Made by a program: the position numbers
DNA from: Escherichia coli
GTDB taxonomy: Bacteria > Pseudomonadota > Gammaproteobacteria > Enterobacterales > Enterobacteriaceae
Strand: one strand, 5' to 3'
Length of the DNA stretch: 64,000 nucleotides
Assembly (NCBI RefSeq): GCF_001677475.2
Contig: NZ_CP015229.1
In this document: positions 27,001 to 30,000 of the stretch, piece by piece
How positions within the stretch are numbered: the first letter of the stretch is position 1
Layout of the letters: each line of letters begins with the position of its first letter

Positions 27001-30000
27001 TCAACGGTTCTATCTCAAACCAAGCAGCCCTTCTATGCAATGCTCGCAATCTACACGCTTTCCTTGGGGTTGGTAAACGCTTTGCATCGTGGATAACAGA
27101 ACGTATTGCTGAATATGGTTTCGTTGAAAATCAGGACTATATGATTGCTTCCCAAATTCGGGAAGCAAAAGGTAGAGGCGGTCACAACCGCAAGGAATAC
27201 CACCTCACCCTCGACACAGCCAAAGAGCTTGCGATGGTTGAACGTAACGAAAAAGGCCGCCAGATACGCCGCTACTTCATCGAGTGCGAAAAGAAACTTC
27301 GCAACATTCAGCCAGTACAAACTGAGCAGCAATTCACAGCAGAAGACATCATCCTGCTCTGCTACGTTCAACTCTGGATGGAAAAAGCACAACAACTCAG
27401 TAAGCAGCTATACCCCGTCATGAGAGAACTGAATTCTGATTACTACGGGAAACTGTTTGATCTGGCCTACGAGACTCGTCATATAACCAACCGGACTCGC
27501 GACACATTGCTCCGCGAAGCAGCAAAACTTGATCCCGCCAACTATATGGTGCATAGGGCCAGAAGTATGCTGGCGCAACTAAGAGCAAGACAATTTGAAT
27601 TCTGAAACCAAAGGAGCTTCGGCTCCTTTTTTCATGGTGTGCCGGGCATGCTCAGCAGCTCGGGGGTGAAAGTCCCCTGTCCAGCCTGATGGTGGCGAAG
27701 GACTAGTGAAGCGCAAGGGTGTCGTCGTGAGGCGGGATCTGAAGGAAGCGTGGAGCAAAACCATGACCTGACGAACAGAAATCCGATATGAGGCCTACCC
27801 GGCTGGCGGAGCAAGCCATTGATTGCAAAGGCCATAACCATCAAGAGCCGGGGTGGTAGATTGGGCAGGTGTGTGGTGAAAGCGGCTGAGCTTACCCCGG
27901 GAGGCCTGTCCGGCGTTCTGTATTCAGAACTGAGCGTACCGTAAGGTGCGCTGACCGGCGGACAGGAGTCAGCAGAGGGCATAGCAGGACAGGCGCGTCT
28001 GAAGGCCCGAACGGTAATGAGTGACGAGTATCAGCGGAGGTTCTGAACGGTCATGCAGCAGAAAACGCATCGCGACCCTGATGCAGGAAGACGGGGTGAA
28101 GCCCCGGACGCCGGTTCTCAGGGGGCTGAAACCGTGCAGGCACCGACGACCAGAGAAAGTCCATCGTCAACAGCGTGGCTGATGGAAGCCATCTGCGAAC
28201 CAGTCAACCTCAGGCATGCCCTGAAAAGAGTGAAGGCCAATAAAGGTGCGGCGGGAGCCGACGGCATGAGCGTAAGCGAACTGCCGGAGCACCTGAAACG
28301 CCACTGGCCGGAACTGAAAGCGCAACTGCTGTCCGGCAGCTACCGCCCATCCCCTGTAAGAAGAGTGACTATCCCGAAGCCCGGCGGCGGCGAACGCCTG
28401 TTGGGCATCCCGACGGTGGTGGACCGCTTTATCCAGCAGGCGATGATGCAGGTGTTGCAGGCACAGTGGGATGCGACGTTCAGCGACAGCAGCTACGGGT
28501 TCCGGCCCGGACGCTCGGCGCATCAGGCAGTGAAGCAGGCTCAGAGATACATCGAGTCGGGCTACAGCTGGGTGGTTGACCTCGATCTGGAAAAGTTCTT
28601 CGATCGGGTGAATCACGATGTACTGATGAGCCGGATAGCGAAACGAGTATCGGATAAACGGGTGCTGTCGCTTATCCGCAGGTACCTGAATGCAGGTGTG
28701 ATGGAAGCGGGTCTGGTAATGCCGGTGACAGAAGGGACGCCGCAGGGCGGCCCACTGTCGCCACTGTTATCGAATCTGCTGCTGGATGACTTCGATAAGG
28801 AACTTGAGAAACGCGGCCTGAAGTTCGCCCGCTACGCAGACGACTGCAATGTGTATGTGAAGAGTGAACGGGCAGGCAATCGTGTGATGGCGGGGCTGAC
28901 GCACTGGCTGAACCGGAAACTGAAGCTGAAGGTCAACGCGAAGAAGAGCGCGGTAGCGCATCCGGAGACGCGTAAGTTCCTGGGTTACAGCTTCAGGAGG
29001 GGCAGAAAGGTGTGGTGTGTGGTGTCGCCGGAATCGGTGAAGCGGTTCAAAACCCGGATAAGAGAACTGACGGGGCGTAACACGGGCAGAAGCCTGGAGC
29101 AGCTTATCGAACCGTTAAAGCGATATCTGACGGGATGGAAAAGCTACTATAGACTGAACCAGTGGCAAACGCTGATGAGAGATCTGAACAGGTGGATAAG
29201 GCGAAGGTTGCGAAGTGTCCTGTGGAAACAGTGGAAAACGGGCAGCAAGCGCTTCAGGGAGTTGCCATAAGCAATGGCGGATAAGCTGTAGTCCGGCACT
29301 GAGCATAGCACTTCCCAATCGCCTGTTCGTCAGACTGGGCCTACCGGAGTTATAGGCAGGCGACGATAAACATAACCGAACCGCCGTATACGGACCCGTA
29401 TGTACGGTGGTGTGGGAGGAGGCTGATCGTGAGATCAGCCCCTATCCCGATCCCGAATGTCAGCGCAATCTCTCCTTTCAAAAATACAAATCCGATAGCA
29501 ATGCCCCATCAGCTACTCATTGTTGCGAGTGTGGAGCTCCAATAGATGAACGGCGACGCCAGGCTGTTCGTAGATGCCGAACTTGTACCAGCTGCCAACA
29601 GGATATTGAGCTGAAGCTCTGCTGAACTATGGAGACTTTTTCCTGCATGCTGCGCCGTCCTGCGCTTCTCTGGACTAAAAACATCAATCACCCGGCCCCG
29701 ACGACTAGTCTAAAAACTAGATTAAGACCATCACTAACTTATGTGATACCAGTTGTCTGAATATTCATGTGGCCAGTGTATCGATCTACTCGTAGGTCTA
29801 GAAAAACAGGAAAAAATCTCGTAGACTATGTTATTAGTCCATCCAATGTAAAACTTGCTGTTTCGATAGGTTCAGTTGTGGATGCTAAAAACCTATGAGA
29901 TACATTTTTAACTTGAGTATTCATTAACTCAAATAACTTTAAGAGCGCATATGGAAAATGTTTTTTATTTTAACCAGAAAGACTTCACAGGTAGAATACT

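What the first reader, a model, noticed from the sequence alone, without database searches (positions are those of the whole stretch)
27611..29450. Group II intron inserted immediately after a rho-independent terminator, with a damaged maturase gene
The intron-like element begins at GTGTG (27637) four nt after a terminator hairpin (27611-27633), carries an RT ORF with the YADD motif, and ends with domain V/VI-like hairpins near 29384-29447. Insertion just downstream of terminator stem-loops is the documented behaviour of one bacterial group II intron class (established knowledge, class C). The RT ORF stops at 29270 (...KRFRELP*) while the expected conserved C-terminal segment (QWRISCSPALSIALPNRLFVRLGLPEL) is readable in another frame at about 29269-29350, suggesting a frameshift or small deletion, so the copy may be immobile.
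Basis: partly seen in the sequence, partly recalled or inferred. Interest (0 to 1): 0.55.

Follow-up and report, generated by a model that had tools for sequence, protein, structure and literature searches.

The report
Broken class C group II intron
This is an ordinary bacterial class C group II intron that inserted just after the terminator of a prophage antirepressor gene and later lost 50 bp of its reverse-transcriptase gene, so it probably cannot move on its own.

Summary
The finding is confirmed almost in full. Window 27637-29451 (+) is an 1815-nt group II intron. Three Rfam group II models hit above gathering score.

It meets every class C (IIC) hallmark I could test:
- CGC catalytic triad and a domain V distal stem 2 bp short
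- AGGAA bulge
- 3-bp EBS1-IBS1 pairing
- RT/maturase without an endonuclease domain, closest to GsI-IIC RT (E = 4e-140)
- 5' end four nt after the T-run of the antirepressor terminator

Across seven independent insertion sites of close relatives, EBS1 covaries with the last 3 exon nt. EBS3 covaries with the first 3'-exon nt at the five sites where that nucleotide could be read. This fixes both boundaries.

The ORF damage is a 50-bp deletion at 29255/29256, between imperfect direct repeats, relative to ~98% identical plasmid copies with a 450-aa ORF. The RT and thumb/maturase domains remain. The C-terminal DNA-binding domain is lost. The identical allele sits at the same locus in 23 contigs from many samples, so it is not an assembly error.

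The 3' exon also lacks 49 bp, which removes the start of the downstream traR/dksA-like gene.

This is a known kind of element and a decaying copy. Interest is low.

The parts
26976..27605 (+). Prophage antirepressor (Ant) gene. It is the upstream '5' exon' transcription unit.
   Evidence: PHROG 377 anti-repressor Ant, E = 1.8e-90. Pfam AntA and P22_AR_C on the identical product.
27610..27632 (+). Intrinsic terminator: stem AAAGGAGC/GCTCCTTT, loop TTCG, then a T-run. It is the structured DNA/RNA motif that IIC introns target.
   Evidence: Read directly from the sequence. Fold. Conserved in intron-free Stx phages and E. coli prophages.
27634..27636 (+). IBS1 (ATG), the last 3 nt of the 5' exon.
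   Evidence: Complementary to EBS1 CAT. The pairing covaries across 7 independent sites.
27637..29451 (+). Complete class C (IIC) group II intron, 1815 nt (1865 nt before the deletion). 5' GTGTG ... 3' CCCGAT.
   Evidence: Similarity to relatives at unrelated sites starts and stops exactly at these bases. Rfam hits.
27721..27891 (+). Domain I core (Rfam group-II-D1D4-3). It contains the 11-nt bulge with AGGAA (27743-27747), the EBS1 loop and EBS3.
   Evidence: 135.4 bits, E = 8e-28, full-length model match. AGGAA position.
27817..27819 (+). EBS1 (CAT) in the loop of hairpin GCAA-GCCATTGA-TTGC.
   Evidence: CAT/ATG, ATG/CAT, ATG/TAT (G-U wobble), AAG/CTT, AAA/TTT.
27859..27859 (+). EBS3 candidate (G in GGTAGAT).
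   Evidence: G where the 3' exon starts with C (window, L001, L021). A where it starts with T (L002, L008, L009).
27931..28007 (+). Domains II-III region (Rfam group-II-D1D4-1).
   Evidence: 49.6 bits against a gathering score of 35.
28053..29270 (+). Truncated intron-encoded protein ORF (405 aa) in domain IV. RT and thumb/X domains are present. YADD at 28833-28844. Last 4 codons plus the stop are out of frame relative to the ancestor.
   Evidence: TIGR04416 at 438 bits.
29255..29256 (+). Junction of the 50-bp deletion. The ancestral sequence CTTC[AAAGAGTTGC...ACGGT]AGGGAGTTGC has an imperfect 10-bp direct repeat at the two ends.
   Evidence: Alignment to L001, L003, L009.
29256..29355 (+). 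Out-of-frame remnant of the IEP C-terminus (part of the DNA-binding domain), ending at the ancestral TAG stop 29353-29355.
   Evidence: Identical in nucleotides to L001. tblastn second segment covers residues 408-450 in another frame.
29381..29410 (+). Domain V, with a CGC triad at 29382-29384 and a distal stem 2 bp shorter than the general consensus.
   Evidence: Rfam alignment, fold, coordinates. IIC criteria from PMC1702495.
29413..29449 (+). Domain VI, with a bulged A at 29444 as the candidate branch point, 7 nt before the 3' splice site.
29452..29625 (+). 3' exon: IBS3 (C, 29452), then a TraR/DksA-type zinc-finger gene that has lost its RBS, start codon and first 13 codons through a 49-bp deletion.
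   Evidence: Alignment to empty sites in 933W and E. coli 05-3629. TIGR02419 and PHROG 54 hits.

Best explanation
A bacterial class C (IIC) group II intron retrohomed into the DNA just after the intrinsic terminator of the antirepressor gene of a lambdoid prophage. The prophage sits next to ynfF in an E. coli/Shigella-type chromosome.

Target choice followed the IIC rule. The element recognises a stem-loop, then makes a 3-bp EBS1-IBS1 pairing (CAT:ATG) and a 1-bp EBS3-IBS3 pairing (G:C).

After insertion, a 50-bp deletion between short imperfect direct repeats shifted the frame of the intron-encoded protein gene after residue 401. This inference rests on the intact 450-aa ORF in ~98% identical copies elsewhere. 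The ribozyme parts look intact. The protein keeps its RT fingers/palm and thumb (maturase) domains. It has lost the whole C-terminal DNA-binding domain, which in IIC RNPs braces the EBS1 loop and holds the DNA spacer and stem base.

By inference, the copy is no longer an autonomous retroelement. It is inherited vertically as a fixed relic in one clonal lineage. Because it lies behind a terminator, it is transcribed only by read-through. At most it could be spliced or mobilised in trans by a full-length protein from a near-identical copy, such as the pAA-type plasmid copies. Inactivity was not tested.
For: Intron identity:
- Three Rfam group II models hit above gathering score.
- The protein passes TIGR04416.

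Class C:
- The best solved relatives are GsI-IIC RT (4e-140) and the E. rectale IIC maturase (1.7e-103), far ahead of LtrA.
- The intact homologue carries only the RVT_1 and GIIM domains and no endonuclease.
- The CGC triad, shortened domain V and AGGAA bulge are present, matching the criteria in PMC1702495.

Boundaries and mechanism:
- Homology to copies at unrelated sites begins at GTGTG and ends at CCCGAT.
- Six of seven independent sites have a GC-rich hairpin plus T-run 2-8 nt upstream. EBS1 matches IBS1 at all seven sites, and EBS3 matches IBS3 at the five sites where the 3' junction could be read, with compensatory changes.
- In-silico excision restores the terminator-CATG|CC junction seen in phage 933W and in E. 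coli prophages.

Damage:
- The 50-bp gap is seen against L001, L003 and L009. tblastn splits the protein into two frames.
- The truncation maps to about residue 367 of the E. rectale protein and about residue 361 of GsI-IIC RT.
- The DNA-binding-domain residues reported to contact EBS1 and the DNA (N378-N405) all lie beyond that point (PMC10190682).

Real allele:
- The exact 405-aa protein occurs on 23 contigs from NCBI assemblies and many SRA runs, always in the same context.
- In the 8 contigs examined, the 2.2-kb region is 100% identical to the window.
Against: - No expression, splicing or mobility data exist.
- The thumb/X domain and the ribozyme are intact, so residual protein-assisted or self-splicing cannot be excluded.
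- Whether an intact copy coexists in the same genomes could not be checked. Only the 64-kb window and short contigs were available, and no second RT gene lies in the window.
- The order of events is inferred. The deletion could have predated arrival at this site if the copy was mobilised in trans.
Confidence: 0.88

Rival explanations
1. The copy is still a working, non-autonomous retroelement. Its intact ribozyme is spliced and mobilised in trans by a full-length protein from a near-identical intron elsewhere in the cell, for example on a pAA-type plasmid. The truncated RT/thumb protein may still assist splicing.
For: Ribozyme motifs are all present. At the two domain V/VI positions where it differs from the plasmid copy, the window carries the residue shared by the other relatives. 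RT and GIIM models are fully covered. Plasmid copies ~98% identical with the same EBS1 and EBS3 exist in E. coli. It is established knowledge that ORF-deleted group II introns can be complemented in trans.
Against: The truncated allele was found only at this one locus, on 23 contigs with the same neighbours, so there is no sign of spread. Location behind a terminator limits transcription. No co-resident intact copy was shown.
Confidence: 0.2
2. The apparent frameshift is a sequencing or assembly artefact, and the real gene is intact.
For: Single-window observations of indels are sometimes errors.
Against: A 50-bp loss is not a homopolymer-type error. The identical 405-aa product occurs in 23 contigs from two NCBI assemblies and many independent SRA runs. 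All 8 contigs examined are 100% identical over the 2.2-kb region.
Confidence: 0.01
3. The DBD-less reverse transcriptase has been domesticated for a host or phage function, in the manner of group II intron-like RTs used in defence or repair. It would be retained by selection and would not be decaying.
For: The RT active site (YADD) and thumb are intact. The allele is fixed in a lineage. Domesticated group II-like RTs exist (PDB G2L4 hits).
Against: Identity among carriers is 100%, which indicates recent clonal descent and gives no signal of selection. Against the plasmid copy, 14 of the 21 differing codons are nonsynonymous. The out-of-frame tail is unchanged, so the deletion is recent. The gene lies behind a terminator with no promoter-like site nearby on the + strand. 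The neighbouring traR-like gene is also decapitated, so the region appears to be eroding.
Confidence: 0.03

Closest known systems
Unnamed class C group II intron on E. coli pAA-type (aat/dispersin) plasmids, e.g. pNORD58_1 NZ_CP139842.1 122910-124774, ltrA WP_021562748.1
   Same: ~98% nucleotide identity across the aligned bases of the whole intron. Same EBS1 (CAT) and EBS3 (G), and the same IBS1/IBS3 (ATG|C). It also sits after a hairpin plus T-run.
   Different: The plasmid copy has the extra 50 bp and an intact 450-aa ORF. It carries T rather than C at the first triad position of domain V, and an A:C mismatch in domain VI. It is at a different insertion site.
GsI-IIC (Geobacillus stearothermophilus) and E.r. 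IIC (Eubacterium rectale, MarathonRT) introns and their RTs (PDB 6AR1, 7UIM)
   Same: Same protein architecture (RT, thumb/X, small DNA-binding domain, no endonuclease), aligning end to end at E = 4e-140 and 1.7e-103. Same mode of targeting: DNA stem-loop, short spacer, IBS1 and IBS3 (PMC10190682).
   Different: Different phylum and a diverged sequence. The window copy lacks everything aligned to MarathonRT residues ~368-413.
B.h.I1 of Bacillus halodurans, the reference IIC intron for terminator targeting
   Same: It shares the features listed for IIC: insertion after intrinsic terminators, 3-4-bp IBS1-EBS1, CGC triad, shortened domain V and AGGAA bulge (PMC1702495).
   Different: No sequence comparison was done here. 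B.h.I1 is multi-copy and active, whereas this copy is single and truncated.
E.c.I6, the class C intron of E. coli CFT073/ED1a/S88/APEC O1 with a disrupted ORF
   Same: Class C, resident in a mobile island of E. coli, about 1.8 kb, ORF disrupted (PMC3522654 and its Table S2).
   Different: Only patchy 67-88% similarity to the window intron, so it is a different intron lineage.

Membership tests
Group II intron (ribozyme plus intron-encoded RT) | Conserved six-domain ribozyme including domain V, and domain VI with a bulged A; 5' GUGYG | tested here: met
   RF02001 135 bits, RF01998 49.6 bits, RF00029 42.6 bits, all above gathering score. 5' GTGTG at 27637. Bulged A at 29444.
Group II intron (ribozyme plus intron-encoded RT) | RT/maturase ORF inside domain IV | tested here: met
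   TIGR04416 equivalog 438 bits against a cut-off of 300. RVT_1 and GIIM. YADD present.
Group II intron (ribozyme plus intron-encoded RT) | Splicing and retromobility activity | not testable with these tools
   Needs RT-PCR and mobility assays. Past retromobility of the lineage is inferred from EBS/IBS covariation at 7 sites.
Bacterial class C / IIC | Inserted shortly downstream of an intrinsic terminator or similar stem-loop, in the sense orientation | tested here: met
   In the window, the intron starts 4 nt after the T-run of the ant terminator, on the same strand as ant. Six of 7 independent relatives' sites show a GC hairpin plus T-run.
Bacterial class C / IIC | Domain V with CGC in place of AGC and a distal stem 2 bp shorter | tested here: met
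   The Rfam alignment shows CGC at 29382-84 opposite consensus AGC, and a 4-nt gap in the distal stem-loop. Criterion from PMC1702495.
Bacterial class C / IIC | 11-nt bulge with conserved AGGAA in the epsilon-prime region | tested here: met
   UCUGAAGGAAG is unpaired in the RF02001 alignment; AGGAA at 27743-47.
Bacterial class C / IIC | Short (3-4 bp) EBS1-IBS1 plus EBS3-IBS3; no EBS2-IBS2 | tested here: met
   3-bp EBS1-IBS1 with compensatory changes at all three positions, and a G:C / A:T switch at EBS3-IBS3. Absence of EBS2 was not separately demonstrated; the terminator occupies the IBS2 position.
Bacterial class C / IIC | Class C type IEP: RT, X and a small D domain, no endonuclease domain | tested here: met
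   The intact homologue is 450 aa with only RVT_1 and GIIM. The closest solved proteins are the IIC RTs. No formal phylogeny was built.
Autonomous (mobile) group II intron | Full-length IEP including the DNA-binding domain | tested here: not met
   A 50-bp deletion and frameshift after residue 401 remove the region aligned to MarathonRT residues ~368-413.

The most novel reading that the evidence does not exclude
The intact ribozyme with a DBD-less RT/thumb protein is not dead. It would persist as a trans-dependent, non-autonomous group II intron, a 'parasite of a parasite' serviced by near-identical plasmid-borne copies. Alternatively, the truncated RT is retained for a non-mobility role in the prophage.
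Probability: 0.07. Interest if true: 0.5.

Novelty: already known. Interest (0 to 1): 0.18.

Why it matters
It matters little beyond correct annotation.

It is a clean example of how class C group II introns behave. They land behind terminators, where they do no harm, stay at low copy number, and then erode. This fits the extinction dynamics described for Enterobacteriales introns (PMC3522654).

Three small points are useful:
- The copy sits in a lambdoid prophage. Few IMG/VR viral contigs carry this intron lineage: three close loci were found, one of which is the window's own contig.
- The set of relatives gives a neat natural covariation series for EBS1/IBS1 and EBS3/IBS3.
- The lesion removes precisely the DNA-binding domain and spares RT and thumb. 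This makes the allele a natural 'domain deletion' that could be compared with the intact plasmid copy.

Tried and rejected
- **Identity with E.c.I6.** I tested whether the element is the catalogued class C intron of CFT073. It is not: similarity is only patchy, 67-88%.
- **Deletion junction in one genome per species.** Exact-match scan of genome contigs found nothing.
- **5' junction in JGI metagenomes.** Nothing found.
- **5' junction in IMG/VR.** Only the window's own source contig was found.
- **Complete E. coli genomes.** None of the 5,426 carries this intron at this site. 23 carry a copy covering at least 80% of the query, at other sites (13 at ~98% on plasmids, 10 at ~86% in chromosomes). 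Many of the 389 'matching' genomes probably match only the 37-nt phage flank that was included in the query; this was not checked for E. coli, though it is what the phage collection showed.
- **Terminator scanner.** It missed the 27610 hairpin. I relied on the sequence, the fold and conservation.
- **Outward-facing promoter.** I looked for one at the intron 3' end that might drive the decapitated traR-like ORF. No promoter-like site was found there.
- **Programmed frameshift.** Rejected, because 50 bp are physically missing relative to relatives.
- **Not done.** I did not build a formal IEP phylogeny, and I could not consult the Zimmerly intron database for an official name.

Full report
**What is there**

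The window carries E. coli-type chromosomal genes, two 808-aa ynfE/ynfF-like ORFs ending at 26436. These are followed by prophage DNA. The window is 100% identical to part of IMG/VR contig UViG_2721755653_000006.

The first prophage gene is an antirepressor at 26976-27605 (PHROG 377, E = 1.8e-90). Five nt after its stop codon lies the hairpin AAAGGAGC-TTCG-GCTCCTTT followed by TTT (27610-27632). The same hairpin is present in 933W and many other Stx phages. GTGTG begins at 27637, four nt (CATG) after the T-run.

**It is a group II intron, and the boundaries are exact**

Rfam gives three hits above gathering score, all on the + strand:
- group-II-D1D4-3, 27721-27891, 135 bits
- group-II-D1D4-1, 27931-28007, 49.6 bits
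- Intron_gpII (domains V/VI), 29379-29451, 42.6 bits

The 96 nt after the ancestral stop codon fold into a domain V and a domain VI, with a bulged A at 29444 (z = -4.0).

Copies of the same intron occur at unrelated sites. Each shares sequence with the window from GTGTGCCGGGC through TATCCCGAT (29451), and no further on either side:
- E. coli pAA-type plasmids (L001), ~98% identity
- Klebsiella plasmids (L003, L009), ~91%
- E. coli chromosomes after cdiI (L002, L010), 86%
- an IS100-truncated chromosomal copy (L011)
- a Providencia plasmid (L008), ~80%
- two IMG/VR contigs (L020, L021), ~90%

Removing 27637-29451 in silico recreates the junction ...GGCTCCTTTTTTCATG|CC... This junction is found intact in phage 933W and in E. 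coli prophages at the same ynfF-adjacent locus.

**Class C membership**

I tested the criteria stated in PMC1702495.
- Domain V has CGC (29382-84) where the general consensus has AGC. Its distal stem-loop is 4 nt (2 bp) shorter.
- The 11-nt unpaired UCUGAAGGAAG contains the AGGAA motif at 27743.
- The intact homologue's protein is 450 aa with only RVT_1 and GIIM domains and no endonuclease.
- That protein aligns end to end with the two structurally solved IIC proteins: GsI-IIC RT (E = 4e-140) and the E. rectale maturase (E = 1.7e-103). LtrA scores only 4.5e-37.
- Six of seven independent insertion sites show a GC-rich hairpin plus T-run ending 2-8 nt before the intron.

The strongest result is natural covariation.

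| Copies | EBS1 loop triplet | Last 3 nt of 5' exon | Candidate EBS3 (window 27859) | First nt of 3' exon |
|---|---|---|---|---|
| window, L001 | CAT | ATG | G | C |
| L021 | ATG | CAT | G | C |
| L020 | ATG | TAT (G-U wobble) | G | 3' junction not read |
| L008 | ATG | CAT | A | T |
| L003/L009 | AAG | CTT | A | T |
| L002/L010 | AAA | TTT | A | T |
| L011 | AAA | TTT | A | 3' end truncated |

This is what retrohoming by a IIC RNP predicts.

**The damage**

Against L001, L003 and L009 the window lacks 50 bp at 29255/29256. The ancestral sequence reads CTTC-AAAGAGTTGC-...-ACGGT-AGGGAGTTGC-CAT. The deletion therefore joins two imperfect 10-bp direct repeats (7 bp perfect), as expected for slippage or microhomology-mediated loss.

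Fifty is not a multiple of three. The ORF 28053-29270 (405 aa) leaves the ancestral frame after residue 401 and stops four codons later. The remaining C-terminal codons survive out of frame up to the old TAG at 29353-55. They are nucleotide-identical to L001, so the deletion looks recent.

The truncated protein still covers the whole NCBIfam group II RT/maturase model (3-353 of 353, 438 bits), and Pfam GIIM still hits it. The missing part aligns to GsI-IIC RT residues ~362-408 and MarathonRT residues ~368-413. That region is the DNA-binding domain.

[quoted passage not shown] Their loss should abolish DNA targeting and may weaken splicing. This step is inference, not a test.

The ribozyme differs from L001 at six positions in the non-coding RNA segments compared. 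At the two in domains V/VI, the window carries the base shared by the other relatives.

**The allele is real and clonal**

The exact 405-aa protein is encoded on 23 contigs from two NCBI assemblies and numerous SRA runs. The context is always ynfF - ant - intron - traR remnant - 167-aa ORF - giant LPD38 protein. The 2.2-kb region is 100% identical in all 8 contigs examined. Nothing suggests the truncated copy has spread to other sites.

No complete E. coli genome in the collection has an intron at this site. Scans of the species-representative genomes and of JGI metagenomes found no further copies.

**Flank damage**

Relative to the empty sites, the 3' exon lacks 49 bp starting a few nt after the intron. 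The loss covers the RBS, the ATG and the first 13 codons of a TraR/DksA-type zinc-finger gene. Sequence downstream of that gene also diverges from the reference prophages. The region as a whole is eroding.

**Comparison with known elements, and verdict**

The element is a member of the well-described class C group II introns. It is nearly identical to plasmid copies that RefSeq already annotates as 'group II intron reverse transcriptase/maturase'.

It is not E.c.I6, the class C intron of CFT073-like strains. I could not determine whether the lineage has a name in the Zimmerly database.

Novelty: already known. Interest: low.

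Noticed in passing
window 29452-29625: Relative to intron-free prophages (933W; E. coli 05-3629), 49 bp just after the intron are missing. The loss removes the RBS, start codon and first 13 codons of a TraR/DksA-type zinc-finger gene. The remaining reading frame is open back into intron domains V/VI (ORF 29407-29625).
   Followed up: partly
window 26847-26935 (+): Rfam sRNA-Xcc1 (RF02221) hit above gathering score (69.1 against 53 bits), full-length. It lies in the gap between the chromosomal ynf genes and the prophage ant gene, 41 nt upstream of the ant start.
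   Followed up: no
window 6660-6872 (-): Near-perfect match to the Hfq-binding sRNA STnc560 (RF01407, 275 bits), in the chromosomal part of the window.
   Followed up: no
window 30580-39000 (-): A 2806-aa ORF. In identical contigs it carries LPD5, LPD1, MuF_C and LPD38 domains (a 'polyvalent protein' of mobile elements). It lies about 1 kb downstream of the intron. Between them is a 167-aa ORF (29951-30454) with no NCBIfam or PHROG match.
   Followed up: no
L001 (NZ_CP139842.1) positions aligned to window 29382 and 29425: In L001, the one plasmid copy examined in detail (intact 450-aa ORF), T replaces C at the first position of the domain V CGC triad, and an A:C mismatch sits in the domain VI stem. 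The window copy has the bases shared by L002 and L003. So the copy with a broken ORF has the better-conserved ribozyme.
   Followed up: partly
L002 / L010 (E. coli chromosomes, after cdiI) and L011: Relatives at 86-88% identity are also decayed. L002 and L010 have a split ORF and an independent 63-nt gap next to the same thumb/DNA-binding-domain boundary. L011 is cut off by IS100. This suggests repeated, independent erosion of the lineage in E. coli chromosomes.
   Followed up: partly
window 1-26500: The IMG/VR 'viral' contig this window comes from includes roughly 26 kb of ordinary host chromosome (ynfE/ynfF and neighbours). The prophage boundary falls near 26440-26970, next to a truncated 4Fe-4S (ynfG-like) gene, as annotated in the related E. 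coli locus L005.
   Followed up: no
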